A stretch of DNA of 64,000 nt from Acidimicrobiia bacterium (GCA_022827725.1 JAJEIJ010000028.1:8795-72794); one strand, 5' to 3'; positions 26,262 through 46,237 are shown, numbered from the stretch's first letter. Translations and numbers: made by a program. Notes: generated from the letters alone by a model not told the origin.

Positions 26262-26284
26262 CCAAGAAACTCATCTGAGAACGA

Positions 26285-28387: not shown

Positions 28388-28792
28388 CTAGGTCGCATTG
28401 ATGCAGTCGAGGGGACCGTTCCAGGCCAGAATCTCCCGGTCGGCGGTGACAAGTACCGCGTTGCGAGTGAGCGCGGTGGCCATGATGAATCGGTCGGCAG
28501 CGTCGTTGGGCGCGGCTTGGTCTCGCAGCTCTACCGCCCGGAGGGCGATCTCCGTGTCGATGGGCAGCTCATAGATGCCACTGTCCCGAAGCCGCGAGCG
28601 CCAGGTTCTCAAGCCCCCGGCCAGTTCGACCCTGCCCTTGCGCAGAAGCTCTCCAAGCTCCCAGTAGGTGGCTGTAGACACAGCCAGTTCGGACGAGGCA
28701 AGGGCGTCTTGGATTGCCCCACTGACCACGGGTGGAATATTTTCCATGTCGCTCAATTCCCAGAGCAGAACATGGGTGTCCGCGATCAGCAT
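28388..28792 (-). CDS. vapC: Type II toxin, PIN-domain VapC family
   Basis: 134-aa ORF. N-terminal MLIADTHVLLW, with later conserved acidic positions (DAADRFIMATA, VTADREI). Its stop lies 1 nt from the convergent permease stop. Confidence 0.85.
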   Translation of the reverse strand: MLIADTHVLLWELSDMENIPPVVSGAIQDALASSELAVSTATYWELGELLRKGRVELAGGLRTWRSRLRDSGIYELPIDTEIALRAVELRDQAAPNDAADRFIMATALTRNAVLVTADREILAWNGPLDCINAT

Positions 28793-29094
28793 CAGGCTGA
28801 ATTGTCGGAACGCGAGCGGTGCAATGCATCCCAGTTATCCATCATCTCATCCGCCGGCTCATCGCCGAAGGTTGGTTCGGTCAGGTCGCCGTGGATGATG
28901 ATTTGATCGCGTCCCATGCCCCGCAGAGTGGGCACTTCCCGCTTCGGTTCGCACGGCACAAGCCGAGCCACAGGATGGCCGTATTTGGTGATCACAAACT
29001 CCACGCCTTCGTCTCGCACCCTGTCCATCAGGGCCAAGCATTTGGCCTTGAAGTCCCCCGCAGCGATGAACTGCTCGGCTAATGGGCTAGACAT
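28792..29094 (-). CDS. Phd/YefM-family antitoxin
   Basis: 100-aa ORF. It has the FKAKCLALMDRVRDEGVEFVITKYGHPVARLVP signature, a GGAGGA Shine-Dalgarno sequence 4 nt upstream, and a 1-nt overlap with the toxin start. Confidence 0.8.
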   Translation of the reverse strand: MSSPLAEQFIAAGDFKAKCLALMDRVRDEGVEFVITKYGHPVARLVPCEPKREVPTLRGMGRDQIIIHGDLTEPTFGDEPADEMMDNWDALHRSRSDNSA

Positions 29095-29109
29095 AGTTCC
29101 TCCAGGAGT

Positions 29110-29141
29110 TATGGTTAAAGATTGACCATAGTCTAACCATA
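29110..29141. promoter_or_regulatory. Inverted repeat in the divergent antitoxin / permease promoter region; candidate operator
   Basis: TATGGTTA-N16-TAACCATA has perfect 8-bp arms. There is an internal direct repeat ACCATAG (29125-29131 and 29136-29142). It lies 16-47 nt upstream of the antitoxin ATG and 23-54 nt upstream of ATG 29164. Confidence 0.35.
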
Positions 29142-29163
29142 GTTACTTCTGAAAGCACCACCT

Positions 29164-30930
29164 ATGAGCGACGCCATTCGATACGAGGCCAACGACCACT
29201 GCCCTTCGGGGGTTGCTGCCGTCGCTGGTCTTCAGGGCGTGGTGCTGGCGCTGGCGCCGATCGTGTCGATTGTGGTGGTCACCGCCCGGGCGGGGGGCCA
29301 AGACGCCGGTTATTTCTCGTGGTCGCTGTTCGCGGCGATGATCATCGCCGGGGTGCTGACTGCGGTGCAGGCCAGCCGATTCCGGCGCTTCGGCGCCGGG
29401 CACATCCTGATCATGGGCCCCACCCCGAACTTCATCGCCATCTCGGTGTTGGCCTTGGCCGAGGGCGGCCCGAAACTGTTGGCCAGCCTTACCGTGGTGG
29501 CCTCGCTGTTCTACCTGGTGCTGGCCTTCTGGCTACCGTTCATGCGCCGGGTTATCACCCCGGTGGTCACCGGCACGGTCCTCCTGCTGATCGCCGGCAC
29601 CGTCTTGCCGGTGGCACTCGACCGGGTGGAAGAGGTGCCTGCCGACGCGCCCGAGGCCGCGGGACCGACCATTGCCTTCTTGACGCTGGCGGTATGCACC
29701 CTGCTGTACATGCGGGCATCGGGAGCAGGGCGATTGTGGTCACCGCTCATTGGGATCGTCTTCGGGAGCGTGGTTGCCGTGCTGTTCGGTGCCTACGAGG
29801 TCAGCCCGGTTGGCGATGCGGCCTGGGTGGGCATCCCCGACTCTGGCGGCTTCCCCGGATTCGATCTGACCCCGGGGGCAGGTTTCTGGTCGCTTCTGCC
29901 CGCGTTCGTGGTGGTAACACTGGCAGGCGGGGTCAAGAACGTGAGCGACAGCGTAGCCATACAGCAGGCCTCCTCGCTTCGCCCCCAAGTTCCCGATTTC
30001 CGGCTGGTTCAAGGCTCCCTGAATACCAACGGCCTGGGCATCTTGTCGGCTGGCATCTTCGGCATTCCACCCACCTCCGTCTACTCGGGTACCAGCGTGT
30101 CGCTCATCAGCTTCACCGGGGTGGGGGCTCGCCGCATCGGCTATGTCATCGGCGGCACTCTGCTTGCTCTGGCCTTTCTGCCCAAGCTGACCGCGTTCTT
30201 GCTGACCCTTCCCAGCCCAGTGGTGGCCGCCTATCTATTGGTGACCATTGCCCTGCTGTTTGTGAGCGGTATCCGCACGGTGGTGCAGGACGGGCTCGAC
30301 GGGCAGAAGGCTCTGGTGGTGGGGGTTGCGTTCGCGCTGGGAATGGGACTCGACAACCAGACCATCTTCACCGACCTCCTGGGCCACAAATGGGGCCTGC
30401 TGCTCGACAACGGCATGCTGATGGGGGCATTGGCCGCGTTGGCGATGGTCGTGTTCTTGGACCTGACCAGCCCGCAGCGGCACAGCCGCTTGGAAGTCGA
30501 CCTGAGCGTCTCGTCGCTTCCTGAGATCGATCGGTTCCTGCAAGAACTGGCGGCCAGGAACGGCTGGGACGAGGCTTCTGCCCAGCGGCTGCGCTCCGCC
30601 GGAGAGGAGGCCCTGCTGAGCCTGGTGCAACCCGATGAGGCCGGCGAAGAGCTGCTGACCAGCCTGATGCAGCCCGAGGCGGATGCCGAGGAGGCCGCCC
30701 GGTTGATCATCCAGGCCCGCCCCGAGGCCGCAATTGTGGAGATGGAGTTTCTCGCCGTGTTCAACGAGGAGAACCTCGAGGACCGGTTGGCATACCTGTC
30801 CGAAGAGGCCGAGGGCTTGCAGGAGGGGGATGTGTCGCTTCGCCTGCTTCGCCACTACTCCTCGTCGGTCCATCACCAGAAGTACCACGGGCTGGACATC
30901 GTGACCGTGCAGGTCCGAGGCTCGCGGTAG
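29164..30930 (+). CDS. NCS2 / xanthine-uracil permease-family (SLC23-like) transporter with a C-terminal cytoplasmic domain of about 155 aa and unknown function
   Basis: 588-aa ORF. The multi-TM core has family-like N-terminal blocks (GLQGVVLALAPIV, GAGHILIMGPTPNFIAI). The soluble tail spans 30463-30927. Confidence 0.8.
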   Translation: MSDAIRYEANDHCPSGVAAVAGLQGVVLALAPIVSIVVVTARAGGQDAGYFSWSLFAAMIIAGVLTAVQASRFRRFGAGHILIMGPTPNFIAISVLALAEGGPKLLASLTVVASLFYLVLAFWLPFMRRVITPVVTGTVLLLIAGTVLPVALDRVEEVPADAPEAAGPTIAFLTLAVCTLLYMRASGAGRLWSPLIGIVFGSVVAVLFGAYEVSPVGDAAWVGIPDSGGFPGFDLTPGAGFWSLLPAFVVVTLAGGVKNVSDSVAIQQASSLRPQVPDFRLVQGSLNTNGLGILSAGIFGIPPTSVYSGTSVSLISFTGVGARRIGYVIGGTLLALAFLPKLTAFLLTLPSPVVAAYLLVTIALLFVSGIRTVVQDGLDGQKALVVGVAFALGMGLDNQTIFTDLLGHKWGLLLDNGMLMGALAALAMVVFLDLTSPQRHSRLEVDLSVSSLPEIDRFLQELAARNGWDEASAQRLRSAGEEALLSLVQPDEAGEELLTSLMQPEADAEEAARLIIQARPEAAIVEMEFLAVFNEENLEDRLAYLSEEAEGLQEGDVSLRLLRHYSSSVHHQKYHGLDIVTVQVRGSR

Positions 30931-30943
30931 CGCAATCAGAATC

Positions 30944-32671
30944 ATGAACGAGGCCATCCGCTACGAGCCCGACGATCCCTGCCCCCCTTTGGTGGCTATT
31001 GCCGTGGGCGCCCAGGGCGTGATGGCCAACATGCTGGGGATTGTGCTGATCGTGGCCATCACCGCACGGGCGGGAGGCCAGGGAGACTCCTATCTGTCGT
31101 GGGCGGTGTTCGCCGCGTTGATCATCTCCGGGACCCTCACCGCCTTGCAGGCCACTCGGATCGGAAGATTCGGCGCCGGCCATGTGCTGCTCATGGGCGT
31201 CACCACCAACTTCGTGGCCATCTCAGTGCTGGCGTTGAACGAGGGAGGGCCGAGCCTGCTGGCCAGCCTCGTGGTGGTGTCCTCGCTGTTCTATCTCCTG
31301 TTGTCGTTCTGGCTGCCCCTGCTGCGCCGGATCATCACCCCGGTGGTCTCCGGCACCGTGCTAATGCTCATCGCCGCCACCGTCTTGCCCATCGCCCTCG
31401 ACCGCGTGCCGGAGGTGCCCGAGGGCACCTCAGATGCCGCCGGCCCGATCATCGCGCTGGTCACGCTGATCGCAACGGTGGTTCTGGCGTTGAAGGTCAC
31501 CGGGGCCTGGCGGCTCTGGTCGCCCATCATCGGCATGGGAGCGGGCTGTGTGGCCGCCGCATTCTTCGGGGCGTTCGACTTCGAGCGCGTCATCGAAGAC
31601 CCCTGGTTCGGCGTCCCCAACAGCGGTGCCCCGGGATTCGACCTGACTCCCGGCGCCGGATTCTGGGCGCTGCTGCCGGTGTTCGTGGTGGTGACGCTGG
31701 TGGGCGGCATCAAGAACATCAGCGACAGCGTCGCCATCCAGCAGGCTTCGTGGCGCCGGCCGCGGGTGACCGACTTCCGGCTGGTGCAGGGCTCGCTCAA
31801 CACCAACGGACTGGGCATCTTCTTCTCCGGCCTGGCCGGGACCCCGCCCACCACCGTCTATTCGTCCAAGAGCGTGCAGCTGACCACCCTGACCGGGGTG
31901 GCCGCCCGCAGCGTGGGGTTCGCCGCCGGGGCGCTGTTCGCCCTGCTGGCATTCTTTCCCAAGCTGACCGCCGTATTGACGGTGATCCCGAGCCCGGTGA
32001 TGGGGGCCTACGTTCTTTCGGCGATCGGGCTCCTGTTCGTGGGGGGCATCCAAACGGTGATGCGCGACGGACTCGACGCCCAGAAGGCGATGGTGGTGGG
32101 GGTGGCGTTCTCGCTGGGGGTCGGGCTGGAGAACCAGACCATATTCGCCGACTTGCTGGGCACCACATGGGGGGCGCTCTTGGACAACGGCGTGATGGTG
32201 GGGGCGGTTGTCTCCGTTGTGCTGACCGTGTTCTTGGATTTGACCAGCCCGCACCGGCCCAGCCGGTTGGCCGTCGAGCTCGACCTCTCCTCGTTGGGGG
32301 AGATCGACGAATTCCTCCAGGGAGTGGCCGATCAGATTGGCTGGAGCAAGGCTTCCAGCCTGCGGCTGCGCTCGGCTGGCGAGGAAACGCTGATGAGCCT
32401 TCTGCGGATGGAGGAGCACCAAACCAGCGACGAAAGCCCTCGTTTGATTATCCAGGCCCGTCCTGATGCCGGTTCAGTGGAGATGGAGTTTCTGGCCGTG
32501 TTCGACGAAGAGAACCTCGAAGACCGGCTGGCGTATTTGAGCGAGGAATCCGAGGGGGTTGAGGAAGGCGAGATCTCGCTTCGCCTGTTGCGGCACTACG
32601 CCTCAACGGTCCACCATCAGAAATACCACGGCCTGGATGTGGTGACGGTTCAGGTCAAAGGCACGGGTTAG
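30944..32671 (+). CDS. Paralogous NCS2 / xanthine-uracil permease-family transporter with the same C-terminal domain
   Basis: 575-aa ORF, collinear with and clearly paralogous to the previous gene (many identical blocks, e.g. RLIIQARP, VEMEFLAVF, ENLEDRLAYLSEE, SLRLLRHY, VHHQKYHGLD). It starts 13 nt after its paralogue. Confidence 0.8.
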   Translation: MNEAIRYEPDDPCPPLVAIAVGAQGVMANMLGIVLIVAITARAGGQGDSYLSWAVFAALIISGTLTALQATRIGRFGAGHVLLMGVTTNFVAISVLALNEGGPSLLASLVVVSSLFYLLLSFWLPLLRRIITPVVSGTVLMLIAATVLPIALDRVPEVPEGTSDAAGPIIALVTLIATVVLALKVTGAWRLWSPIIGMGAGCVAAAFFGAFDFERVIEDPWFGVPNSGAPGFDLTPGAGFWALLPVFVVVTLVGGIKNISDSVAIQQASWRRPRVTDFRLVQGSLNTNGLGIFFSGLAGTPPTTVYSSKSVQLTTLTGVAARSVGFAAGALFALLAFFPKLTAVLTVIPSPVMGAYVLSAIGLLFVGGIQTVMRDGLDAQKAMVVGVAFSLGVGLENQTIFADLLGTTWGALLDNGVMVGAVVSVVLTVFLDLTSPHRPSRLAVELDLSSLGEIDEFLQGVADQIGWSKASSLRLRSAGEETLMSLLRMEEHQTSDESPRLIIQARPDAGSVEMEFLAVFDEENLEDRLAYLSEESEGVEEGEISLRLLRHYASTVHHQKYHGLDVVTVQVKGTG

Positions 32672-32690
32672 CCTCGGCGTAGGAGAGAGC

Positions 32691-35600
32691 ATGGCTTCGC
32701 GAACAGGGGAATCCATCGCGGTTGTCGGGATGGCCTGCCGGTTTCCCGGTGCTGGCAACTTGTCGGAGTTCTGGCGTTTGCTGGAAACGGGTCAGAACGC
32801 AGTAAGCGAGGGGGTTCCCGGCTCTGGTGTGGGGCGAATCGGAGAGCTATTCCGAGATGCCGACGTTCAGAATGATGCCTGTCGATTCGCCGGATTCATC
32901 AGCGGCATCGACCAATTCGATGCCTCGTTCTTCCGGATCTCGCCGGTTGAGGCCCAGCTGCTGGATCCCCAGCAGCGTCTGATGCTGGAAACGAGCTGGC
33001 AGGCCCTTGAGGACGCGGGAATCAACCCCGATCAACTTCGCGGCAGCCGCACCGGGGTGTATGCCGGGATCAGCAACTACGACTACCGCGCCCTGATCTT
33101 GGCCAACAGCGCCTCCGCCGAGGCGGCGGTCAGCCTGTATTCGGTGAGCGGCACATCCTTCAACACCGCCATCGGACGAGTGGCCTTTGCCTTGGGGCTG
33201 CAAGGTCCGGCGCTGGCGGTGGACACCGCCTGCTCCTCTTCGCTGACCGCGGTCCATCAGGCGGTATCGGGGCTCCAGCGGGGAGAGGCCGACCTGGCCC
33301 TGGCCGGAGGGGTACACGTGATCCTGTCGGGTCGGCTGTTCGAATTGCGGGGCAATGCCGGGATGCTGGCCCCCGATGGGAAGTGCAAGACGTTTGACGC
33401 TGCGGCCGACGGATATGTGCGAGGCGAGGGCTGCGGCATCCTGGTGCTGAAGCGGCTGAGCGATGCCGAGGCCGACGGAGACCGGATCTGGGGCGTGATC
33501 TTGGGGTCAGCGCTGAACCAGGACGGCGCCAGCACCGGGTTGACCGTGCCCAATGGGGTGGCCCAAAAACTGGTGATCACCGAGGCGTTGGCCCGGTCGG
33601 GGGTTCAGCCTTCTGAGGTGGACTACCTGGAGGCGCACGGCACCGGAACCCCAGTGGGTGACCCCATTGAGTTGGAGGCTGCCGTTGGTGCCTATTGCCA
33701 AGAGCGCGACGCCGATCAACCGCTGCTCATCGGGTCGGTGAAGACCAACGTCGGCCACTTGGAGCCAGCCGCCGGTGTGGCCGGCCTGGTCAAGGTGATG
33801 TTGTCGATGAAGCAGGGGGTGATCCCCCCGCACCTGCACTATGAGAATCCGACCCCGGCGATCGACTGGGACCAGGTGCCGCTAAAGGTGACGGCTGAGC
33901 CCACCCCCTGGCCGAACCGCTCCGACCGCATGGCTATCGCCGGGGTGAGCGGGTTCGGCTGGTCGGGCACCAACGCCCACGTCATCGTGGAGGCCTACGG
34001 GGTGGGCGACTGCGAACCAGCCCAGCCCGGCGAGGAACGGTGGCCGACAGGTCCTCCTCGGTCTATTGCCGTCGCCACCGCGGATGACGCAGCGGCCATG
34101 CCGGTGGACGCCCCTGCCATGGTGCGCCCTGCGAGGCTGCTGCCCTTCTCGGCGAAGTCGGACAAAGCTCTGAAGGAGCTTGCCCAGGGCTATCTCGAGT
34201 GGTTAGACGACGATATCGGTCCCCCGTCGAGGGAGGTGCTGGCTGACACTGCCTGGACGGCCGGGATCGGCCGCAGCCATTTCTCCCATCGGGCCGGCGT
34301 GGTGTTCACCGACGCCGAGTCGCTGCGGGACAAGCTCGATGCGCTGGTGGAATCTGGTGATGAGGTGGCCGGGTCTTCGGTCGCACCAAAGGTGGCCTTT
34401 GCCTACACCGGGCAGGGCAGCCAGTGGGTGGGCATGGGGGAGTCGCTCTACCAGAGCGAGCCGGTGGTGCGGGCGATCTTGGATCGTTGCGAGGAGGTGT
34501 TTCGCCACGAGCGGGGCACGTCGCTGCTGGCGGTGATGTTCGGGTGGCCCGACGCCGACGGAGACCTGGACGATCCGGCGTGGACGCAGCCCGCCATATA
34601 CGCGTTGGAGTGTGCGCTCACCGCACTGTGGTCGAGCCTGGGGGTTCGGCCCCATGCGGTGGTGGGGCACAGCCTGGGGGAGATCGCGGCGGCTCACACC
34701 GCGGGCGTGCTCAGCCTGGAGGACGGCCTTCGCTTTGCCGCTGGGCGGGGCAAGCTCATGTCGGAGCTGCCAGAGCCCGGCGCGATGGCCGCAGTGTTCG
34801 CCCCGGCATCGGTGCTGGTCGCCGCAGTGGAGGAGCAATGCGCCGCCTCGGGTGACTCGCGGCTGTCCATTGCCGCCGACAACGGGGCCCACCTGATGGT
34901 GAGCGGACCGACCGCCGATGTTGAGGCGCTGCTAGGGCGCTTCGAGGCCGACGAGGTCAGGGTCCGGCGACTGGAGAAGAGCGCCGGATACCACAGCGCC
35001 ATGGTGGAACCGATTCTGGACGGCATTGAGGGGCTGCTCACCGAGCTTGCGGTGGGCGCGCCTTCGCTCACCGTGGTGAGCAGCATGACGGGCCAAGTGC
35101 TGAAAGATGGCCAAGCGATGGACGGGGCGTATTGGCGTCGCCAGGCCCGCCAGCCGGTGGAGTTTCGGAACAGTGTGCAGGCGCTGGCCAAATTGGAGGT
35201 GGACGCGGTTATCGAAGTCGGCCCCGGGGCGGTGCTCGGCCCCATGACGGTTCTGTCCTGGCCCGCCCAGGCCGCGGTGGCCGAGCCGATTGCAGTGTCG
35301 AGCATGAAGCGGCCCTCGGATCGAACACCGACCCCCGAGGATGGCTGCGGATTCCTCGACGCGGTGGTGGGGGCGTACCAGTCCGGGCTCGATATCAGCT
35401 TTGAGGGCCTGTACGGAGGCGAGTCCCGACGCCGCCTATCGCTTCCGGGCTACCCGTTCCAGCGCCAGCGCCACTGGGTGGAAGCCGCAAAACGCCGTCG
35501 ATCCGGCGAGGGGCACCCATTGCTCGGCATTTGCCACGAATCCCCCCGAGGCGAGCTTCAGTTTGAGACGGAAATGGATCCCTCCGATCCGCAGTGGCTG

Positions 35601-38600: not shown

Positions 38601-41600
38601 GGCACGCTGGGCTCCGAGGTGGTCACCACCGAGGAGTTGGTGGCGCTGGCCCCCTCGGGCATTTCGCCCGCGGCGCTGGCCACGTTGCCCACCGTCTTTG
38701 TTACGTCTGCGCTGTCTTTCGATCTCGCCGACCTGAAGGCGGGCGAGCGGGTGCTGATCCACGCTGGGACGGGAGGGGTGGGGCTGGCCGCGGTGCAGTT
38801 GGCCCAGGCGGCGGGGGCCGAGGTGTTCGCCACCACGAGCGCTCCGAAACAGGCGTATCTGCGGTCGCTGGGCGTGGAACACGTATTCGACAGCCGTCGG
38901 ACTGATTTCGCGGAGGGAATTCTCGAAGCCACCGGGGGCGCGGGCGTCCACGTGGTGCTCAACAGCCTTACCGGCCCTGGCTTCATCGACGCCAGCCTGT
39001 CCTGCCTGGCTCAAGGCGGCCGCTTCGTGGAGTTGGCCCGGGTGGACATCCTCAGCGAAGAGGAGATGGCCGCGGCCCGGCCCGACGTGGGCTACTGGAT
39101 CTTGGAGCTCGACGTTCTCAAAGAAGAGAATCCCGCAGTACCCGGAGACGCCCTCCGGCGCGTGGTGGCCCGGGTGGCAGCCGGCGAGCTGGAACCGCTG
39201 GTACACACTCGGTGGTCGCTGGCCGAAGCGGGTTCGGCGATGAAGTACATGCAGGCCGCCCGGCACATTGGCAAGCTGGTTCTGGCCGGTTCCCCTCTTG
39301 AGACGGGACGGTTGAGGGACGACCGGACCTATCTGGTGACCGGCGGCCTGGGAGGCATTGGCTGCCCGGTTGCTGGCTGGCTGGCCGGCCGAGGCGCGGG
39401 GGCCATCGTGTTGAACGGGCGGCGGCCCCCCGATCCCGAGGCGGAGGAGGCGATCAGCGAGCTCCGTCGACAGGGAGTGGCGGTGGAGATTGAACTGGCC
39501 GATGTGACCGACCCGTCGGCCATAAACCAGATGCTGGCCAGGATCGACGCCGATCTGCCGCCGCTCGGGGGTGTTATCCACAGCGTGGGCGTGCTGTCCG
39601 ACGGTGCGCTCACCAACCAGACCTGGGAGAAGTTCGAGGAGGTGCTGTGGCCGAAGATTTTGGGGGCCTGGCATCTGCATCGGGCCACTGAAGGCCGCGA
39701 TCTCGATCTGTTCGTGTTGTTCTCCAGTGTGGCCGGGGTCTTGGGCAATTCAGGTCAGTCGAACCACGCCGCCGCCAATGCGTTCTTGGACCAGCTCGCC
39801 GCCCACCGCCGTTCACTGGGCCTGCCCGGGCAGTCGATTGCCTGGGGAGCGTGGTCGGGGCTGGGTGAGGCCGAGGAGCACCGGGAGCGGATTGCGGGGC
39901 AACTCGAAGCAGCGGGCACGGGGTGGCTCACCCCCGAGCAGGGATTGAAGGCGTTCGACCATCTGGTGCGCCAAGACGTGACCATGGGCATGGTGGCGGC
40001 GGTGGACTGGCAGGTGGTCTCCGAAGGCCCCGACGCCCGATCGCTCTTCTTGGAGGATCTGCTGTCGGCTGATGCGTCTGGCGAATCCCAGGAATCGTCG
40101 GTCGATCTGTTGGACGACCTCAGGAATGCCGCCGCCGCGGAGCGCGAGGAGAAGTTGGTCGCACACCTGCAACGAGAGCTGCAAGCCGTGATGCGGTTGC
40201 CCGACCTGCCGAATGAATCGGCTGTGTTCGCCGACCTGGGCATGGACTCGCTGATGGTGGTGGAACTGCGGAACCGGCTGAACCGGGCGTTCGCCGGCGA
40301 GTACACCGTGTCGAACACCGCGATCTTCGACTACCCGGACGTCACCGGACTGGCCCGACACTTGTCTCTGGAGTTCGGACAGGCCGGCGAAGTGGCCGAA
40401 CCCCGGGAAGCAGCCGAGGCATCCCGGCCCCGGGTTGCCCAGTCGGACGACGAGGGGATCGCCATCGTTGGCATGGCCTGTCGGTTCCCCGGTGCCGAGG
40501 ACCTATCGGCCTTTTGGCGCCTGCTGGAGGCCGGCGAGAACACGGTTACCGACGGACGCCAAGACGGCGGTTCATGGGACGGAGTCCTCGGCGATCCGGC
40601 CGCCGGCGATGCCGTCTACCGCAGGGGTTCGTTCATCGAGGGACTCGACGCCTTTGATCCTCAGTTCTTCCGGGTTGCGCCGAGAGAGGCGTGGTCGATT
40701 GATCCGCTCCAGAGGCTATTGCTGGAGACCAGCTGGCAGGCGGTTGAGGATGCCGCTATCGATCCCGAACGTCTGAAGGGAAGCCGCAGCGGGCTGTACA
40801 TCGGTCTCGGTGTCAGCGAATACCGGGGCGTGATCCAGAGGAGCGGTCGAGCTGGGGGCCATCTCAACACCGCGGGAAGCGTGACCGTGGGAAAGGTGGC
40901 GTTCTCGCTGGGCATCGAGGGACCGGCAGTGCCGCTGGACTTGGCCTGCGCGTCGTCGCTGTTTGCCGTACACCAAGCGGTGGAGGGCCTTCGGAGAGGG
41001 GAGACCGACATCGCCCTGGTGGGGGGCGTGAACGCCATCTTGTCTACTGCGGTCACCAATGCGCTGGTCGAGGTCGACATGCTGTCGTCGCAGGGGCAGT
41101 GCAAGTCGTTTGACGCCTCGGCCGACGGCTATGTCCGCGGCGAGGGTTGTGGCGTGGTGGTGCTGAAGCGGTTGAGCGATGCCGAGGCCGACGGCGATCG
41201 GATCTGGGGGGTTGTCCGAGGGTCGGCGGTGAGCCAGACCGGGGCGGGTCTTGCCGTCACTGTCCCCAGCGGCCGGGCCCAGGAGCGGGTCATGGTGGAG
41301 GCGCTGGCCCGGGCTGGCATCTCAGCGGATGAGGTGGACTATGTGGAAGCACATGGAGCAGGCACCGCAGTGGGCGATGCAGTGGAGGCCAGCGCCATTG
41401 CCGCCGTCTATGGCCAGGGGCGCGAGGAAGACCGCCCGGTATGGATCGGATCGGTGAAGACCAACATCGGGCACCTTGAGGGCGCGGCCGGGATGGCCAG
41501 CTTGATCAAGGTGGTGCTGGGGATGAGGCATGGGACGCTGCCCAGGCACCTGCACTTCAGCGAGCCGAGTCCCGAGATCGATTGGGCGAGGATGCCGCTG

Positions 41601-42290
41601 AGGGTGGCCACCGAGCCGATTGAATGGCCAGGAGACCGGGGCCGCCAATCGTTGGCCGCGGTCAACTCATTCGGAATCTCCGGCGCCAATTCGCACATCG
41701 TGGTTGAGGGGTACCAATCCACTGCTGATGATTCCGATGGATTAAGAAGGCCGTGGCAGCCGGTGGGGTCACCGCAAGCCGTGGCAGCCGGGGAATCGCA
41801 GCTCGATGGGGGATCGGAGCCTCCGACAAGACGGCTGCTGCCGTTGTCGGCCAAGACCCCGGCGGCGTTGCGAGAGCTGGCCCGGCGGTATCTCTCCTGG
41901 CTCGACGAGCACGCTGAGGAGCTTTCAGCAGCCGGTGCGGCAACCGATCCGCTGCTCTCCGACCTGGCGTGGACGGCAAGCATGGGGCGAAGCCACTTCT
42001 CCCATCGGGCTGGGTTGGTGTTCAGCGACGCCAAGTCGCTCCGCCAGCAACTCAGCGCTCTCCATGAGGTCGGCGAGCAGCGAGTTCAGAGCGGTGTGAC
42101 GGCGCCTGAGAGCGGCCATGACCCGCTTGCAGTCATTGCGGCGGAATATGCCGATGGGCAGGCGATTCAATTCGAGAGCTTGTTCCAGGGCGAGGCGCGT
42201 CGTCGGATCTCGCTGCCCGACTACCCGTTCCAGCGGCAGCGCTTCTGGGTAGAAGCGCCCCCCCAGTCGAGGGGCTCCGAGGACGATTGA
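32691..42290 (+). CDS. Type I polyketide synthase, KS-AT-DH-cMT-ER-KR-ACP-KS (the second KS is followed only by AT-flanking linker remnants)
   Basis: One uninterrupted 9,600-nt ORF (3,199 aa). Hand-located motifs: KS1 DTACSSSL (Cys181), EAHGTGTPVGD, KTNVGHLE. AT GHSLGE (Ser661). DH HRVYGQVITP and LLLDGCFQ. cMT LEVGAGTGSAT. ER LIHAGTGGVGLAAVQLA. KR TYLVTGGLGGIG. ACP LGMDSL (Ser2520). KS2 DLACASSL (Cys2753), EAHGAGTAVGD, KTNIGHLE. An AGGAGAG Shine-Dalgarno sequence lies upstream. Confidence 0.95.
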   Translation: MASRTGESIAVVGMACRFPGAGNLSEFWRLLETGQNAVSEGVPGSGVGRIGELFRDADVQNDACRFAGFISGIDQFDASFFRISPVEAQLLDPQQRLMLETSWQALEDAGINPDQLRGSRTGVYAGISNYDYRALILANSASAEAAVSLYSVSGTSFNTAIGRVAFALGLQGPALAVDTACSSSLTAVHQAVSGLQRGEADLALAGGVHVILSGRLFELRGNAGMLAPDGKCKTFDAAADGYVRGEGCGILVLKRLSDAEADGDRIWGVILGSALNQDGASTGLTVPNGVAQKLVITEALARSGVQPSEVDYLEAHGTGTPVGDPIELEAAVGAYCQERDADQPLLIGSVKTNVGHLEPAAGVAGLVKVMLSMKQGVIPPHLHYENPTPAIDWDQVPLKVTAEPTPWPNRSDRMAIAGVSGFGWSGTNAHVIVEAYGVGDCEPAQPGEERWPTGPPRSIAVATADDAAAMPVDAPAMVRPARLLPFSAKSDKALKELAQGYLEWLDDDIGPPSREVLADTAWTAGIGRSHFSHRAGVVFTDAESLRDKLDALVESGDEVAGSSVAPKVAFAYTGQGSQWVGMGESLYQSEPVVRAILDRCEEVFRHERGTSLLAVMFGWPDADGDLDDPAWTQPAIYALECALTALWSSLGVRPHAVVGHSLGEIAAAHTAGVLSLEDGLRFAAGRGKLMSELPEPGAMAAVFAPASVLVAAVEEQCAASGDSRLSIAADNGAHLMVSGPTADVEALLGRFEADEVRVRRLEKSAGYHSAMVEPILDGIEGLLTELAVGAPSLTVVSSMTGQVLKDGQAMDGAYWRRQARQPVEFRNSVQALAKLEVDAVIEVGPGAVLGPMTVLSWPAQAAVAEPIAVSSMKRPSDRTPTPEDGCGFLDAVVGAYQSGLDISFEGLYGGESRRRLSLPGYPFQRQRHWVEAAKRRRSGEGHPLLGICHESPRGELQFETEMDPSDPQWLSDHRVYGQVITPGALYGTMAVSALAANGNGRPSTPTGRSFVVEDLQLLSPMVFPEPDSDEGAAPEGRQVQFVLDEADPRAPARFEIYSRGPGEDGWTRHAEGLAHSEAGRIEGAESVDLDGLKAGLEPRDVSEFYRSRTGAGVELGTPFRTLRVLWASQGEAVGELSLPETIDRGGIEVHPLLLDGCFQVMAEARSGAGGDDGVAYLPFGWERLWLTGPMPDQLVCHARLKEAAEPSEGTPEVLTGDLVFYDQRGTVLGGLSGYTVKRATRAALLSAAGSLDDLLYEIVWRDSPLAPGILPADFLPPPSAIAAGSEPFTQYLAAEGVEAESRAGFLADLERLAWSYARLALDRLGWVRTAGDTVVPDELREQLGVAPEHGRLFRRMLEMMAKAGALEEVGDEFTVNVGSDDPLPEVLAGDPAARADWMEGQYPHGTMEIGLFRRCAGALAEVVVGNADPLTLLFGSGEPSAADLYIKAPMAQASNRMLGDAVAALLAELPEGRRLRVLEVGAGTGSATASVLPELPAGRFDYTYTDISAGFFAEAERRFGGAEASIDYRVLDIEVDPVEQGFDRHGYDLVIASNVLHATRFLDETLGNCRRLLAPSGHLVALETLRGLGWLDLSFGPLDGWWRFADHYRPHHALTSPDVWLRALGDSGFPAAEVLGVDPPDTGRQPDRGVIVAQGPAEVSEQPGVWILASDSGDSAENLAQELAARNQTVALVGDGAPINDQPLLDEPGVVRVSLAMSQRESWQSFFEGLSPDAAVRGVVHLVSLDGRGSQAGTEQLAEDAAQAGKSALALLQGMGDADAAPANGVWLVTQGAQVLEHEPAEGIAGAMLWGLGKVVGREAPHLNPRMIDLDPGGVVPLSDLANELLYPDAETHIAYRQGLRQAARLDRAGVGSGRPNLPDPAGEVSWLLAADSGGALEGVKPEPRPPAALDGRGVRVAVEAAGLNFLDMFRSLGVIGAGLLGEEFCGRVVEVGDDVSTVSVGDRVAGLGFGTLGSEVVTTEELVALAPSGISPAALATLPTVFVTSALSFDLADLKAGERVLIHAGTGGVGLAAVQLAQAAGAEVFATTSAPKQAYLRSLGVEHVFDSRRTDFAEGILEATGGAGVHVVLNSLTGPGFIDASLSCLAQGGRFVELARVDILSEEEMAAARPDVGYWILELDVLKEENPAVPGDALRRVVARVAAGELEPLVHTRWSLAEAGSAMKYMQAARHIGKLVLAGSPLETGRLRDDRTYLVTGGLGGIGCPVAGWLAGRGAGAIVLNGRRPPDPEAEEAISELRRQGVAVEIELADVTDPSAINQMLARIDADLPPLGGVIHSVGVLSDGALTNQTWEKFEEVLWPKILGAWHLHRATEGRDLDLFVLFSSVAGVLGNSGQSNHAAANAFLDQLAAHRRSLGLPGQSIAWGAWSGLGEAEEHRERIAGQLEAAGTGWLTPEQGLKAFDHLVRQDVTMGMVAAVDWQVVSEGPDARSLFLEDLLSADASGESQESSVDLLDDLRNAAAAEREEKLVAHLQRELQAVMRLPDLPNESAVFADLGMDSLMVVELRNRLNRAFAGEYTVSNTAIFDYPDVTGLARHLSLEFGQAGEVAEPREAAEASRPRVAQSDDEGIAIVGMACRFPGAEDLSAFWRLLEAGENTVTDGRQDGGSWDGVLGDPAAGDAVYRRGSFIEGLDAFDPQFFRVAPREAWSIDPLQRLLLETSWQAVEDAAIDPERLKGSRSGLYIGLGVSEYRGVIQRSGRAGGHLNTAGSVTVGKVAFSLGIEGPAVPLDLACASSLFAVHQAVEGLRRGETDIALVGGVNAILSTAVTNALVEVDMLSSQGQCKSFDASADGYVRGEGCGVVVLKRLSDAEADGDRIWGVVRGSAVSQTGAGLAVTVPSGRAQERVMVEALARAGISADEVDYVEAHGAGTAVGDAVEASAIAAVYGQGREEDRPVWIGSVKTNIGHLEGAAGMASLIKVVLGMRHGTLPRHLHFSEPSPEIDWARMPLRVATEPIEWPGDRGRQSLAAVNSFGISGANSHIVVEGYQSTADDSDGLRRPWQPVGSPQAVAAGESQLDGGSEPPTRRLLPLSAKTPAALRELARRYLSWLDEHAEELSAAGAATDPLLSDLAWTASMGRSHFSHRAGLVFSDAKSLRQQLSALHEVGEQRVQSGVTAPESGHDPLAVIAAEYADGQAIQFESLFQGEARRRISLPDYPFQRQRFWVEAPPQSRGSEDD
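32709..33989 (+). other. PKS domain: ketosynthase 1
   Basis: IAVVGMACRFPGA to GTNAHVIVE. The active-site Cys codon TGC is at 33231-33233, and both catalytic His motifs are present. Confidence 0.9.
34386..35300 (+). other. PKS domain: acyltransferase
   Basis: AFAYTGQGSQW; GHSLGE (codons 34665-34682); an Arg 25 residues after the Ser; and a non-canonical specificity motif, SAGYHSAM, in place of HAFH or YASH. Confidence 0.85.
35508..36395 (+). other. PKS domain: dehydratase
   Basis: HPLLG start, HxxxGxxxxP (HRVYGQVITP, 35607-36) and DxxxQ (DGCFQ) motifs. Boundaries are approximate. Confidence 0.8.
36888..37535 (+). other. PKS domain: C-methyltransferase (SAM-dependent)
   Basis: Motif I LRVLEVGAGTGSAT (from about 37113), then DLVIASNVLHAT. 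Boundaries are approximate. Confidence 0.8.
38403..39305 (+). other. PKS domain: enoylreductase (MDR family)
   Basis: GLNFLDMF, NADPH motif VLIHAGTGGVGLAAVQLA, and HIGKLVL near the end. Boundaries are approximate. Confidence 0.8.
39324..39890 (+). other. PKS domain: ketoreductase, with the catalytic Tyr position occupied by His
   Basis: TYLVTGGLGGIG Rossmann motif, WPKILGAWHLH (Lys present) and FSSVAG (Ser present). GQSNHAAANAFLD occurs where the family consensus reads ...YAAAN...; the codon CAC is at 39765-39767. Confidence 0.8.
40143..40385 (+). other. PKS domain: acyl carrier protein
   Basis: FADLGMDSLMVVELRNRL. The Ser codon TCG is at 40248-40250. Confidence 0.85.
40452..41720 (+). other. 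PKS domain: ketosynthase 2 (Cys-His-His intact)
   Basis: IAIVGMACRFPGA to GANSHIVVE. The Cys codon TGC is at 40947-40949, and both His motifs are present. Confidence 0.9.
41826..42254 (+). other. KS-AT linker and post-AT linker remnants with no AT core between them
   Basis: LLPLSAKTPAALRELARRYLSWLD...GRSHFSHRAGLVFSDAKSLRQQL parallels module-1 residues 481-560. ...FESLFQGEARRRISLPDYPFQRQRFWVE parallels module-1 residues 903-931. The roughly 325-aa AT core is absent. Confidence 0.8.
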
Positions 42291-42350
42291 CACTTTCGCT
42301 CCCCTTGATACACTTTCCCCGCTTTCAATCGGCTGCAAAGGAGCAGGTGA

Positions 42351-42593
42351 ATGTCTTCCACTGAAGAGCGAATCAGGGCCATCGTCGACCAGACTTTGGA
42401 GATTGATGGGCGAGAAGCGGGTCAGCCCTTGGACCTGTCTCGCAACGTTGCCGATGCAGGCGTCGCTTCTTCAGACATCGTGGCTTTTTGGCAAATGGTC
42501 AACCAGGAGTTCGGCACCGACATCTCCGCTGAAGAGTTTGCCGAGCTCTTGACACCTCAAGACCTCATCAACCACCTCGAATCCTCTGGTTGA
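42351..42593 (+). CDS. Small discrete carrier protein (ACP/PCP-like), divergent attachment motif
   Basis: 80-aa acidic ORF with a four-helix-like layout. The candidate phosphopantetheine site is AGVASSDIVAF (Ser40/41, 42468-42473) rather than the canonical GxDS. An AAGGAG Shine-Dalgarno sequence lies upstream. It sits between the PKS and the PPTase. Confidence 0.6.
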   Translation: MSSTEERIRAIVDQTLEIDGREAGQPLDLSRNVADAGVASSDIVAFWQMVNQEFGTDISAEEFAELLTPQDLINHLESSG

Positions 42594-43294
42594 TCACCGA
42601 CGCAGATAGCTGGTTGCGCCGGTTCAAGAGCATCGGTGCTATTGCCGTCTTCCACGTCGACCTGATCCCCGATCAGGGGCGCGAAGCCGAGGCCCTTACG
42701 TGGCTTGACGGGGAAGAGCGCTCGCGTTGGGAGCGCTTTCAATCCCCAACCGCTCAACGGCGGTATGTGCTGTGCCGTGCCGCGCTCCGTGCCATTCTTG
42801 GCCGCCAACTCAGTTGTCCAAACGAATCGCTGGGGTTCGAGGTCGCCAAACACGGCAAGCCGTTTGCCCTGGTCAACGGCCTGCCTGCTTCCATCAGCTT
42901 CAACGTGAGCCACAGCGGCAACCACGGGCTGATTGCCGTGGCTCCTAGGGGCCGCCTAGGTGTGGATGTTGAGGAGCGGGCCCCTCGCCGAAATCTCGAG
43001 AACCTCATCGAAGGCGTGTTCAGCCCGCATGAGAAGGCCGAGTTGGAATCGCTTGACGGGTGCCAGCAGCTTCATAAGTTCTTTCGCTTCTGGACGATCA
43101 AAGAAGCGCTGGTGAAGGCCCACGGCAAGGGCCTGTCCATGAAGGTCGCAGAATTGGAGATCCCCGAAGACATGCGCCGGGGAGCGGCCAAGAGCATCTG
43201 CCAGTTTGCTCAAATCCCCGAGACGACTTGGTGCTTGGAGGATATGGGAACGAGGGAGTTCGCCGCCGCCATCGCCTATGAAGTAAGCCCGTGA
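42590..43294 (+). CDS. Sfp-type 4'-phosphopantetheinyl transferase
   Basis: 234-aa ORF with FNVSHSGNHGLIAV, LGVDVEE and FWTIKEALVKAHGKGL motifs. The TTG start overlaps the carrier-protein stop (TTGA), so the start is uncertain. Confidence 0.85.
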   Translation: MITDADSWLRRFKSIGAIAVFHVDLIPDQGREAEALTWLDGEERSRWERFQSPTAQRRYVLCRAALRAILGRQLSCPNESLGFEVAKHGKPFALVNGLPASISFNVSHSGNHGLIAVAPRGRLGVDVEERAPRRNLENLIEGVFSPHEKAELESLDGCQQLHKFFRFWTIKEALVKAHGKGLSMKVAELEIPEDMRRGAAKSICQFAQIPETTWCLEDMGTREFAAAIAYEVSP

Positions 43295-44202
43295 CCGTGA
43301 CGGAGCAAGAATCGGTTTGGAGCGTTCCCGAGCCGCGGTCTGTCCACGAAGTGAGAATGGACGAAGAGTCGTCGGTCTTGCTTCGCCGCCACGGAGACCC
43401 CGATGGAACTCGGCTGATCCTCAGCCATGGGAATGGCCTGGCCATTGATCTCTACTATCCGTTCTGGTCGCTCCTGACCCAAGACTTCGATCTCATCGTC
43501 TACGACATGAGAAACCATGGCTGGAACGCGGTCGGCGGCTTGGAAAACCACAGTGTTCCGACGCTGGTTGGCGATCATGACCGCATACTTGAGGAGATTG
43601 GCCGGCAATTCGGCCAGAAACCGCAGGTTGGCGTATTCCACTCTGTGTCGTGCCTCACACCCCTCATTTCTGAATCCAAAGGCAGCGACTACGCGGCGCT
43701 CGTCTTGTTCGATCCGCCCCTGTGCAAGCCGGGCAGGAACTTTCGGGACTTCGAAGAAGCCGCGATCCGAATGGCGAAGTCAGCCCGGCGCCGCACCCAT
43801 CGGTTCAAGACCAAGAGCGCGTTCACCGAGCTGTTCGGGATATTCCCCACCTACAAGGCGGCGGTGCCCGGGACGGTTGACCTGCTGGCCGATTCCACCC
43901 TGCGGGAATCCCCCGACGGGGAGGGCTTTGAGCTGCGATGCCCTCGGGAGTACGAAGCGCAGATCATCGACTACGCCAGCGTCTTCGGAGCGTTCATCGA
44001 CTTCTCCAAGATCCGCTGTCCGGTCAAAGTGCTCGGCGCCGACCCCACGCTGCCTTATTCGTACCTGCCGTCTCTGAACCTCAGCGATATCTCCAGCGTG
44101 GACTACGACTTCCTTCCCGACGCAACCCACATGCTCCAGTTGGAGCAACCCGAAGAATGCGCCGCCATCCTGCGGCAGTTCATCGAGTCGGTTCTGACTT
44201 AA
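43291..44202 (+). CDS. Alpha/beta-fold hydrolase (candidate product-release or tailoring enzyme)
   Basis: 303-aa ORF. It has an HG oxyanion motif (LILSHGNGL), a nucleophile-elbow region VGVFHSVSC (non-canonical), and a C-terminal LPDATHMLQLEQPEE His motif. The GTG start overlaps the PPTase stop (GTGA). Confidence 0.75.
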   Translation: MTVTEQESVWSVPEPRSVHEVRMDEESSVLLRRHGDPDGTRLILSHGNGLAIDLYYPFWSLLTQDFDLIVYDMRNHGWNAVGGLENHSVPTLVGDHDRILEEIGRQFGQKPQVGVFHSVSCLTPLISESKGSDYAALVLFDPPLCKPGRNFRDFEEAAIRMAKSARRRTHRFKTKSAFTELFGIFPTYKAAVPGTVDLLADSTLRESPDGEGFELRCPREYEAQIIDYASVFGAFIDFSKIRCPVKVLGADPTLPYSYLPSLNLSDISSVDYDFLPDATHMLQLEQPEECAAILRQFIESVLT

Positions 44203-46187: not shown

Positions 46188-46237
46188 GTAAATCTGTTCA
46201 AACTGAGTTCTTAGAGCTCTAGGGGAGGAAGAGCACC

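What the first reader, a model, noticed from the sequence alone, without database searches (positions are those of the whole stretch)
29164..44202. Compact orphan polyketide system: 2 permeases + KS-AT-DH-cMT-ER-KR-ACP-KS megasynthase + divergent carrier protein + Sfp-type PPTase + alpha/beta hydrolase
Six co-directional genes are separated by gaps of 13, 19 and 57 nt, then by TTGA and GTGA overlaps. The synthase starts directly with a Cys-active KS; there is no loading module, FAAL or CoA ligase nearby. It has a fully reducing, C-methylating module in the FAS/HR-PKS domain order and ends with a second Cys-His-His KS that has no AT, ACP or thioesterase of its own. The only candidates for the missing functions are the discrete 80-aa carrier protein, the single AT acting in trans, and the alpha/beta hydrolase. 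A dedicated PPTase makes the locus self-sufficient, which is typical of acquired clusters. It lacks tandem ACPs, FabA-type DH and CLF, so it is not a PUFA synthase. It lacks the enediyne PksE layout, and it lacks the sulfotransferase-TE of olefin synthases. I do not recognise the combination as any described pathway. A speculative product is a short-extension, alpha-methyl-branched beta-keto or fatty-acyl-derived compound released from the discrete carrier.
Basis: partly seen in the sequence, partly recalled or inferred. Interest (0 to 1): 0.75.

Follow-up and report, generated by a model that had tools for sequence, protein, structure and literature searches.

The report
Sponge-symbiont "Sup" polyketide synthase locus
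The six genes are real, but they are not an unknown pathway: they are a copy of the "Sup" lipid-type polyketide synthase cluster, first described in 2007, that is spread through the bacterial symbionts of marine sponges and whose product has still not been shown experimentally.

Summary
Six co-directional genes lie at 29164-44202: two NCS2 permeases, a 3199-aa KS-AT-DH-cMT-ER-KR-ACP-KS synthase, an 80-aa carrier protein, an Sfp-type PPTase and an alpha/beta hydrolase.

The claim that this matches no described pathway does not hold. The window's proteins occur exactly in Candidatus Poriferisocius, an Acidimicrobiia sponge symbiont. The same synthase architecture is present in all 80 best related loci, all of them MAGs from at least 12 phyla or classes. 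Only four other gene families recur beside it: carrier protein, hydrolase, PPTase and NCS2 permease. This matches the published "sup" (sponge symbiont ubiquitous PKS) cluster, whose SupE is a permease and whose proposed, unproven product is methyl-branched fatty acids.

Extra details:
- The terminal KS keeps Cys-His-His in 65 of 66 full-length relatives (one has Gln at the first His).
- In 64 of 80 loci it is followed by a dead AT remnant. In 16, including this one, the AT is cleanly excised.
- The KR has His in place of the catalytic Tyr in 66 of 66 relatives, a subtype tied to C-methylating modules.
- The permease carries a degenerate RsbW-like C-terminal domain.

Verdict: a new member of a known kind, of modest interest.

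The parts
29164..30930 (+). SupE-like permease 1 (588 aa). It has an NCS2/NAT transporter core (aa 19-396) plus a C-terminal domain of about 150 aa (nt 30472-30927).
   Evidence: Pfam Xan_ur_permease, E 2e-31. NCBIfam xanthine permease scores 175 bits, far below the 414 cut-off. It is 63% identical to permease 2. The exact sequence is in public assemblies.
30944..32671 (+). SupE-like permease 2 (575 aa). It has an NCS2 core plus a conserved C-terminal RsbW/SpoIIAB-like domain (nt 32249-32668) that lacks the ATP-binding motifs.
   Evidence: Pfam. Cluster mates are named 'solute carrier family 23 protein [Candidatus Poriferisocius sp.]'. The C-terminal 141 aa have no Pfam hit. In the AF2 model the C-terminal domain has pLDDT 71-84 over residues 440-520. 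Foldseek matches RsbW, UsfX and SpoIIAB with target-normalised TM 0.65-0.84 and E from 1.7e-5 to 8.5e-4 among matches with E <= 0.001. A homologue is present in 44 of 63 full-flank related loci.
32691..42290 (+). SupA-like type I PKS (3199 aa). Domains in nt: KS1 32709-34001, AT1 34389-35270, DH 35514-36422, C-MT 37065-37577, ER 38382-39284, KR 39327-40010, ACP 40167-40364, KS2 40455-41720, and KS-AT linker plus post-AT linker without an AT 41835-42287.
   Evidence: Pfam and coordinates. Catalytic residues are conserved in 66 full-length relatives, apart from one gapped KS1 row and one Gln at KS2 His2888. The best solved relative of both KS regions is CurL KS-AT, at 695 and 421 bits. The same domain order is found in all 80 related genome loci.
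39765..39767 (+). KR residue His2359, at the position of the catalytic Tyr of the YxxxN motif.
   Evidence: It aligns to the catalytic Tyr of MAS and AmphB KR. It is His in 66 of 66 family members. His-KRs occur almost only in C-MT-containing modules among 368 typed KR motifs.
42351..42593 (+). SupB-like discrete acyl carrier protein (80 aa), with the phosphopantetheine Ser at residue 40 (nt 42468-42470).
   Evidence: Pfam PP-binding, E 3e-8. The 'GV.S.D' motif is conserved in 63 homologues. It is present in 55 of 63 full-flank loci. Named 'phosphopantetheine-binding protein [Ca. Poriferisocius sp.]'.
42590..43294 (+). SupC-like Sfp-type 4'-phosphopantetheinyl transferase (234 aa, TTG start overlapping the ACP stop).
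   Evidence: Pfam ACPS plus AASDHPPT_N. HetI-like, 111 bits. Present in 40 of 63 full-flank loci.
43291..44202 (+). SupD-like alpha/beta hydrolase (303 aa), with candidate triad Ser118 (nt 43642), Asp251 (nt 44041) and His280 (nt 44128).
   Evidence: Pfam Abhydrolase_6. S118, D251 and H280 are invariant in two alignments. The AF2 model has pLDDT 73 and pTM 0.80. The best PDB fold match is the curacin CurM thioesterase 3qit, E 3.5e-13, among more than 1000 generic matches. Present in 58 of 63 full-flank loci.

Best explanation
This is a sup ('sponge symbiont ubiquitous PKS') locus of the sponge-associated actinobacterium Candidatus Poriferisocius. The gene order is supE-supE'-supA-supB-supC-supD.

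Shown:
- There are five conserved components.
- All catalytic residues are intact.
- The terminal KS lacks a working AT throughout the family.

Inferred mechanism:
1. The PPTase converts the cis ACP and the free carrier SupB to their holo forms.
2. Module 1 (KS1-AT1-DH-cMT-ER-KR-ACP) uses malonyl units (AT1 motif xA[F/Y]HS), SAM and NADPH. It builds a reduced acyl chain with C-methyl branch(es), probably iteratively like a fatty acid synthase.
3. KS2, a true condensing KS, takes the chain from the cis ACP and condenses it with malonyl-SupB. SupB must be loaded in trans by AT1 or the cell's FabD. This gives a beta-ketoacyl-SupB with no reductive domains of its own.
4. The Ser-Asp-His hydrolase SupD releases or transfers the product.
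5. The NCS2 permeases, through their degenerate RsbW-like cytoplasmic domain, move a small polar solute or couple transport to regulation.

The end product is a methyl-branched lipid. The literature proposes mid-chain methyl-branched fatty acids. Its exact structure is unknown.
For: Host and family:
- Exact protein matches sit in clusters named Ca. Poriferisocius (Acidimicrobiia).
- The 80 best genome loci are all MAGs, from Acidimicrobiia, Chloroflexota, Gamma-, Alpha- and Deltaproteobacteria, Latescibacterota, Gemmatimonadota, Rhodothermales, Nitrospirales, Acidobacteriota and Binatia. All have KS-AT-DH-MT-ER-KR-ACP-KS.
- Only the ACP, hydrolase, PPTase and NCS2 permease families recur next to the PKS, in shuffled order and orientation.

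Literature:
- Sup enzymes are small mono-modular PKSs exclusive to high-microbial-abundance sponges and proposed to make mid-chain-branched fatty acids.
- SupE is a permease, and a 557-aa SupE-like permease is flanked by anti-anti-sigma ORFs.
- SUP gene cluster families occur in all sponges studied, independent of taxonomy.
- KS1 carries the DPQQR and HGTGT motifs used for the KS PCR primers in those sponge screens, in 65 of 65 ungapped rows.

Mechanism:
- KS1, AT1, DH, cMT His/Glu, ER, KR Lys/Ser/Asn, ACP Ser and KS2 Cys-His-His are conserved in 66 relatives, apart from one gapped KS1 row and one Gln at KS2 His2888.
- The second AT has Gly in place of the nucleophile Ser and lacks its small subdomain. 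It is fully excised in 16 of 80 loci, in several separate clades.
- The hydrolase triad is invariant, and its best fold match is a PKS off-loading thioesterase.
- His-KRs sit in ordinary multimodular PKSs, so the KR is probably active.
Against: - I could not compare directly with the deposited SupA-E sequences or read Fieseler et al. 2007. The published gene order and SupA domain order rest on my memory. No hit in three protein searches carried a 'Sup' name.
- The sponge origin of the related MAGs is inferred from bin names and from the genus name, not from sample metadata. One paper reports a Poriferisocius MAG in corals.
- Iterative use of module 1, trans loading of SupB by AT1, and hydrolytic release are inferences.
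- An NCS2 transporter is not expected to move a lipid, so the permease's role does not fit a simple fatty-acid pathway.
- The KR lacks the canonical catalytic Tyr.
- The hydrolase fold match to CurM TE is barely better than many unrelated hydrolases.
Confidence: 0.8

Rival explanations
1. Branch-insertion model. SupA does not work iteratively. KS1 accepts a medium-chain acyl group made by the cell's type II FAS. Module 1 adds one fully reduced, C-methylated C2 unit. KS2 then condenses the chain with malonyl-SupB, and the resulting beta-ketoacyl carrier re-enters FAS II for further elongation. This would place the methyl branch mid-chain. SupD would act only as an editing or terminal thioesterase.
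For: There is no loading module or starter-activating enzyme in any of 82 loci. The second module has no reductive domains and uses a free-standing carrier that scores weakly against FAS-type AcpP models. This would explain 'mid-chain' branches, the product class proposed in the literature.
Against: SupB is very divergent from AcpP (29 bits against a cut-off of 70). The hydrolase is as strongly conserved as SupB, which suggests dedicated release. Nothing shows that FAS II enzymes accept SupB. The model does not explain the permease.
Confidence: 0.25
2. The true product is not a fatty acid. It is a beta-keto acid or methyl ketone, or an acyl conjugate. SupD either hydrolyses beta-ketoacyl-SupB, followed by decarboxylation, or transfers the acyl group onto a small polar molecule brought in by the NCS2 permease.
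For: The last module lacks KR, DH and ER, so the chain on SupB is a beta-keto thioester. The best fold match of SupD is CurM TE, a thioesterase that couples hydrolysis to decarboxylation. NCS2 transporters carry nucleobases or ascorbate, not lipids, yet the permease is linked to the PKS in 44 of 63 loci.
Against: No sulfotransferase or other tailoring gene is conserved. The fold match is not discriminating. No such compound class is cited for sponges in the papers read. The permease is missing within 10 kb in about 30% of loci.
Confidence: 0.15
3. One reading: a compact orphan polyketide system that corresponds to no described pathway.
For: No curated NCBIfam model reaches its cut-off except the generic type I PKS model. 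No source names any homologue beyond generic terms. The product is unknown.
Against: The family has been described since 2007 as sup or SUP and is reported as the dominant PKS of sponge microbiomes. Architecture, host and neighbours match.
Confidence: 0.05
4. A decaying, non-functional cluster, with the lost AT and the KR lacking its Tyr as signs of decay.
For: The AT after KS2 is deleted. The KR has His at the Tyr position.
Against: The ORFs are intact. Every other catalytic residue is invariant in 66 relatives from many phyla, and domains are 60-74% identical across phyla. The His is universal in the family and typical of C-MT modules. AT loss recurs independently while KS2 stays intact.
Confidence: 0.02

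Closest known systems
sup cluster (SupA PKS, SupB-SupE) of uncultivated sponge symbionts (Fieseler et al. 2007; Hochmuth et al. 2010; 'SUP' gene cluster families of Loureiro et al. 2022)
   Same: Shared features: a sponge-symbiont host; a small FAS-like single-module PKS with a C-methyltransferase; a neighbouring permease (SupE); spread across many bacterial phyla; a KS with the DPQQR and HGTGT primer motifs; and an unproven product. From memory, not checked here: supB is an ACP, supC a PPTase and supD a hydrolase.
   Different: This copy has two tandem permeases (63% identical). It belongs to the minority (16 of 80) in which the dead AT after the terminal KS is completely excised. Direct identity to the deposited Sup proteins could not be measured.
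swf cluster (SwfA KS-AT-DH-ER-KR-ACP, SwfB reductase-sulfotransferase, SwfC radical SAM) of sponge symbionts
   Same: Both are widespread, sponge-specific, mono-modular FAS-like PKSs of unknown product. A SupE-like permease lies near swfA on one fosmid.
   Different: SwfA has no C-MT and no terminal KS, and its KS lacks DPQQR. Its partners are R-ST and radical SAM proteins, not an ACP, PPTase and hydrolase. None of these partners is present here.
Mycocerosic acid synthase and MAS-like PKSs (iterative makers of methyl-branched fatty acids)
   Same: They share the KS-AT-DH-ER-KR-ACP order and a reduced methyl-branched lipid product. MAS is the best solved match for the KR (164 bits).
   Different: MAS gets its branches from methylmalonyl-CoA. 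Here there is a SAM-dependent C-MT and a malonyl-type AT motif. MAS has no terminal KS and no free carrier. Its KS-AT is more distant than CurL (480 against 695 bits).
Animal FAS and fungal highly reducing PKS (for example LovB)
   Same: They share the KS-AT-DH-MT-ER-KR-ACP domain order, and LovB also has an extra C-terminal domain after the ACP.
   Different: Sequence affinity is to bacterial cis-AT modular PKSs: CurL 695 bits, LovB 380, and FAS too weak to appear for KS1-AT1 at the 1e-100 cut-off (about 240 bits for KS2). There is no TE. The extra domain is a second KS rather than a condensation domain.
CurL and related cyanobacterial cis-AT PKS modules; trans-AT 'AT-less' KS-linker units
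   Same: CurL KS-AT is the closest solved structure to both KS regions. After AT excision, KS2 looks like the KS-linker units of trans-AT PKSs.
   Different: The AT-less state here is secondary. Relatives keep a dead cis-AT remnant. There is no dedicated trans-AT gene in the cluster.

Membership tests
sup (sponge symbiont ubiquitous PKS) cluster | Carried by bacterial symbionts of marine (high-microbial-abundance) sponges | tested here: met
   Exact protein matches fall in clusters named Candidatus Poriferisocius sp., Acidimicrobiia. The best 80 related loci are all MAGs with sponge-type bin names. Caveat: host metadata were not seen, and one Poriferisocius MAG is reported from corals.
sup (sponge symbiont ubiquitous PKS) cluster | Small mono-modular FAS-like type I PKS whose architecture predicts methyl-branched fatty acids (that is, it has a C-MT) | tested here: met
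   KS-AT-DH-MT-ER-KR-ACP is present. The MT SAM motif and His/Glu dyad are invariant. Literature description.
sup (sponge symbiont ubiquitous PKS) cluster | KS and AT carry the motifs targeted by the degenerate primers that recover sup amplicons (DPQQR and HGTGT; GQGSQW and GEIAAA) | tested here: met
   KS1 has DPQQR and HGTGT, in 65 of 65 ungapped family rows. AT1 has YTGQGSQW and GEIAAA. Primer motifs are quoted.
sup (sponge symbiont ubiquitous PKS) cluster | A permease gene (supE) next to supA | tested here: met
   Two NCS2 permeases lie directly upstream. SupE is annotated 'Permease', and a 557-aa homologue is reported. A permease is linked in 44 of 63 loci.
sup (sponge symbiont ubiquitous PKS) cluster | Occurs in many unrelated phyla within sponge microbiomes | tested here: met
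   At least 12 phyla or classes among 80 loci, interleaved in the NJ tree. The same statement appears in the literature.
sup (sponge symbiont ubiquitous PKS) cluster | Sequence membership in the clade of the deposited SupA-SupE proteins (clones pAPKS18, pSW1H8, pAE27P20) | not testable with these tools
The primary paper is not held. No hit carried a Sup name.
sup (sponge symbiont ubiquitous PKS) cluster | Product is mid-chain methyl-branched fatty acids | not testable with these tools
   This is only a proposal in the literature. It needs expression and chemistry.
PUFA synthase (PfaA-type) | Tandem ACPs, FabA-type DH, KS-CLF pair | tested here: not met
   There is a single cis ACP, a PS-DH type dehydratase and no CLF. 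PfaA scores 531 bits against a cut-off of 1010.
Olefin synthase / CurM-type terminal module | Sulfotransferase plus thioesterase after the ACP | tested here: not met
   There is no sulfotransferase in the PKS, in the window ORFs scanned or in related loci. Only the discrete hydrolase resembles CurM TE in fold.
trans-AT PKS | AT-less modules served by a dedicated free-standing AT; KSs of the trans-AT clade | tested here: not met
   Module 1 has an active cis AT. KS2 is closest to cis-AT CurL, and its AT-less state derives from a dead cis AT. No free AT gene recurs.
NCS2/NAT nucleobase-ascorbate transporters | Xan_ur_permease fold and score above the subfamily cut-offs for xanthine or uracil permeases | tested here: inconclusive
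   The Pfam domain is met, and the fold matches UapA and UraA. NCBIfam subfamily scores of 175-190 bits are far below the cut-offs of 292-414. It is a divergent subfamily whose substrate is not inferable.

The most novel reading that the evidence does not exclude
The sup machine may not be a simple branched-fatty-acid synthase. It may be a conserved five-part system. In it, an intact second condensing KS works with a free carrier loaded in trans, because its own AT is dead in most lineages and has been lost independently several times. It would release a beta-keto-derived lipid through a CurM-TE-like hydrolase, and it would be coupled to an NCS2 transporter fused to a degenerate anti-sigma-kinase-like domain that senses or gates a small polar partner molecule.

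A side rule would also be new if unreported: bacterial KR domains inside C-methylating modules use His in place of the catalytic Tyr.
Probability: 0.2. Interest if true: 0.6.

Novelty: new member of a known kind. Interest (0 to 1): 0.3.

Why it matters
Sup is reported as the dominant polyketide synthase of sponge microbiomes, making up over 99% of KS amplicons in one survey. In the papers I could read, its product and its host organisms are treated as open questions. This window adds a complete, uninterrupted copy in an assigned Acidimicrobiia symbiont. The comparison of 82 loci defines the minimal conserved gene set and the state of each active site. That makes a reconstitution experiment easier to design: supA-D plus malonyl-CoA, SAM and NADPH. 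It does not reveal a new kind of pathway.

Tried and rejected
- Homologue search with the full 3199-aa PKS timed out.
- The word-indexed protein database returned no protein longer than about 1260 aa and not the window's own PKS. Named full-length SupA entries therefore could not be retrieved. Searches with the permease and the hydrolase gave no 'Sup' names either.
- Fieseler et al. 2007 and Siegl et al. 2011 are not held. Ten literature searches found no text giving the SupA domain order and no functional characterisation of Sup. The supplementary figure of Loureiro 2022 is an image only.
- The high PDB score to 7zma looked like a special affinity of KS2 to a trans-AT bimodule. It is the sum of two KS hits, so I rejected it.
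- The '515 relatives' come from generic ACP patterns. I do not use that number as a family size.
- I considered recent island insertion between duplicated ABC operons and rejected it. The flanking operons are old paralogues (25-49% aa identity). There are no tRNAs, no Rfam hits and no bounding repeats.
- The promoter and terminator scan was at background level.
- I considered the KR His as evidence of a dead KR and rejected it after the survey of 368 KR motifs.

Full report
**Observation**

The six ORFs exist as described, all on the + strand:
- 29164-30930 (588 aa)
- 30944-32671 (575 aa)
- 32691-42290 (3199 aa)
- 42351-42593 (80 aa)
- 42590-43294 (234 aa)
- 43291-44202 (303 aa)

The gaps are 13, 19 and 60 nt. 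Two 4-nt overlaps, TTGA and GTGA, follow.

Pfam assigns the first two proteins to Xan_ur_permease (NCS2). The large protein is KS-AT-DH-methyltransferase-ER-KR-ACP-KS with a KS-AT linker at the end. The small proteins are PP-binding, an Sfp-type PPTase and Abhydrolase_6. NCBIfam agrees but gives no specific family.

The larger ORFs I scanned across the 64-kb window contain no adenylating enzyme, thioesterase domain or second PKS. The surroundings are transporters and catabolic enzymes. A VapC/Phd-type toxin-antitoxin pair lies directly upstream on the other strand.

**Whose DNA it is**

The exact sequences of both permeases, the carrier protein, the hydrolase and a neighbouring oxidoreductase are in public assemblies. 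Their 90% clusters carry the name Candidatus Poriferisocius sp. (Actinomycetota; Acidimicrobiia).

Homologues of the ACP-KS2 region and of the permease come from MAGs labelled Acidimicrobiia, Chloroflexi/Dehalococcoidia, Gemmatimonadota, Latescibacteria and Rhodospirillales, among others.

**Related loci**

I scanned one genome per GTDB species with a profile of the ACP-KS2 region. It returned 80 loci, all MAGs, from at least a dozen phyla or classes. Two more loci came from contig look-ups.

- Mapping the window's domains and proteins onto these 82 loci shows KS-AT-DH-MT-ER-KR-ACP-KS everywhere.
- Among the 63 loci with full 10-kb flanks, the carrier protein is present in 55, the hydrolase in 58, the PPTase in 40 and the NCS2 permease in 44. 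All four are present in 32. Their order and orientation vary.
- An all-against-all clustering of every ORF in these loci finds no other recurrent family.

The system is therefore self-contained. It is not a fragment of a larger assembly line.

**What it is called**

The papers I could read describe 'sup' (sponge symbiont ubiquitous PKS).
- Sup enzymes are unusual small mono-modular PKSs found widely and exclusively in high-microbial-abundance sponges.
- They dominate KS amplicon libraries obtained with DPQQ/HGTGT primers.
- They are proposed, without proof, to make mid-chain methyl-branched fatty acids.
- SupE of clone pAPKS18 is a permease.
- SUP gene cluster families were recovered from every sponge species examined, in several phyla, 'independent of bacterial taxonomy'.

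The window's PKS has the C-MT, the primer motifs, the permease neighbour, the host and the phyletic spread expected of sup.

I recall the published operon as supE, supA, supB (ACP), supC (PPTase) and supD (hydrolase), which is the order here.

**Anatomy of the synthase**

I aligned 66 full-length relatives. The following residues are conserved, apart from one gapped KS1 row and one Gln at KS2 His2888:
- KS1 Cys-His-His
- AT1 GHSxG and Arg
- the DH His and Asp
- the C-MT SAM motif and His/Glu dyad
- the ER and KR nucleotide motifs
- the KR Lys, Ser and Asn
- the ACP Ser
- KS2 Cys-His-His

The AT1 specificity motif is xA[F/Y]HS, which is malonyl-like.

KS1-linker and KS2-linker are 50% identical. 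After KS2 come the KS-AT linker and then directly the post-AT linker. The AT core has been cut out cleanly.

In 64 of 80 loci a remnant AT is still there, but its nucleophile Ser is Gly and its small subdomain is missing. In 16 loci, including the window, it is gone. A rough NJ tree places these full losses in several separate clades and interleaves phyla. That speaks for repeated loss and for horizontal transfer.

By sequence, both condensing regions are closest to the cis-AT module CurL (695 and 421 bits). They are not closest to FAS, MAS or trans-AT KSs.

**The KR**

The catalytic Tyr is His2359, and it is His in 66 of 66 relatives. I tested whether this marks a dead domain.

- His occurs 17 times. 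In 11 of those a C-MT lies in the same module.
- Tyr occurs 350 times, once with a C-MT.
- His-KRs sit beside Tyr-KR modules in ordinary multimodular synthases.

The sample is biased towards relatives of a His-KR query, and the counts are not independent events. Still, the reading 'working KR subtype linked to C-methylation' is better supported than 'inactive KR'.

**Accessory proteins**

- SupB-like ACP: the 'GV.S.D' motif, with Ser40 in the window protein, is conserved.
- Hydrolase: Ser118, Asp251 and His280 are invariant. By sequence it has only remote relatives in the PDB. Its model has pLDDT 73. The model's best match is the curacin CurM thioesterase, but more than a thousand generic alpha/beta hydrolases also match.
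- Permeases: the two are tandem paralogues, 63% identical, and form a divergent NCS2 subfamily.
- Permease C-terminus: the conserved last 140 aa or so have no Pfam match. In a model that is poor overall but fair in this part, they resemble the anti-sigma kinases RsbW, UsfX and SpoIIAB. I see no N-box Asn or Gly-rich ATP motifs in the sequence (my reading), so the domain is probably a non-catalytic binding module.
- It fits that a SupE-like permease on a Plakortis fosmid is flanked by anti-anti-sigma factor ORFs.

**How it most likely works**

Shown: five conserved parts, intact active sites and no working second AT.

Inferred:
1. The PPTase primes both carriers.
2. Module 1 makes a reduced, C-methylated acyl chain from malonyl units.
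3. KS2 condenses the chain with malonyl-SupB, which is loaded in trans.
4. The hydrolase off-loads the product.
5. The permease has a transport or regulatory role.

Three questions need experiments. Is module 1 iterative, or does it insert one branched unit into a FAS-derived chain? Is the final product a fatty acid or a beta-keto-derived compound? What does the permease carry?

**Verdict**

This is a correct observation of a real and interesting-looking locus. It is a new member of a known, uncharacterised family rather than an unrecognised pathway.

Noticed in passing
window 39765-39767 (KR His2359); proteins P0420-P0569: The KR catalytic Tyr is replaced by His in all 66 family members. Among 368 KR motifs in related megasynthases, His is almost confined to modules that also carry a C-methyltransferase: His with MT 11, His without MT 6, Tyr with MT 1, Tyr without MT 349.
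   Followed up: yes
window 41835-42287; loci L001, L008, L012-L014 and others: The terminal KS is followed in most relatives by a dead AT remnant, with GHSxG changed to GHGxG or GQGxG and the small subdomain deleted. In 16 of 80 loci, in several separate clades, the remnant is fully excised and only the two linker halves remain.
   Followed up: yes
window 32249-32668 and 30472-30927: Both NCS2 permeases carry a conserved C-terminal domain of about 140 aa with no Pfam match. Its modelled fold resembles the anti-sigma kinases RsbW, SpoIIAB and UsfX, but the ATP-binding motifs are not visible in the sequence. A published fosmid has anti-anti-sigma ORFs next to a SupE-like permease.
   Followed up: partly
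window 29164-32671: The permease gene is tandemly duplicated (63% aa and 72-76% nt identity, 13-nt gap). Most related loci show one copy within 10 kb. NCS2 transporters work as dimers, so a heterodimer is conceivable.
   Followed up: partly
L004:1-13560; L073:4108-12142: An Acidimicrobiia MAG contig carries two sup-type PKS genes in tandem, each followed by its own small carrier protein, and the second PKS lacks the C-MT domain. A Gammaproteobacteria locus also lacks the C-MT. Unbranched-product variants of the family therefore exist.
   Followed up: partly
window 28388-29163: A PIN-domain toxin (28388-28792, - strand) and a Phd/YefM-like antitoxin (28792-29094, - strand) abut the cluster. The 69-nt divergent intergenic region holds three copies of the 8-mer TAACCATA, one of them inverted. 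This could be an antitoxin operator shared with the permease promoter region.
   Followed up: no
window 42287-42314: The only sizeable intergenic gap in the cluster (60 nt, PKS to ACP) holds a promoter-like TTGACA-16-TACACT with an upstream TG, and a good AAGGAG ribosome-binding site lies before the ACP start. The scan as a whole was at background level.
   Followed up: no
window 24360-28386 and 44310-48419: The cluster plus the toxin-antitoxin pair sits between two paralogous peptide-type ABC importer operons (SBP_bac_5 plus two permeases; 25-49% aa identity, so an old duplication). The downstream operon is syntenic in the closest relatives L003 and L007. GC3 of the whole 24-50 kb stretch (0.63-0.87) is lower than that of outlying genes (0.88-0.93).
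   Followed up: partly
window 44418-44530: The N-terminus of the downstream solute-binding protein encodes a short acidic tandem repeat (four overlapping copies of a 44-nt unit rich in GAC/GAT codons).
   Followed up: no
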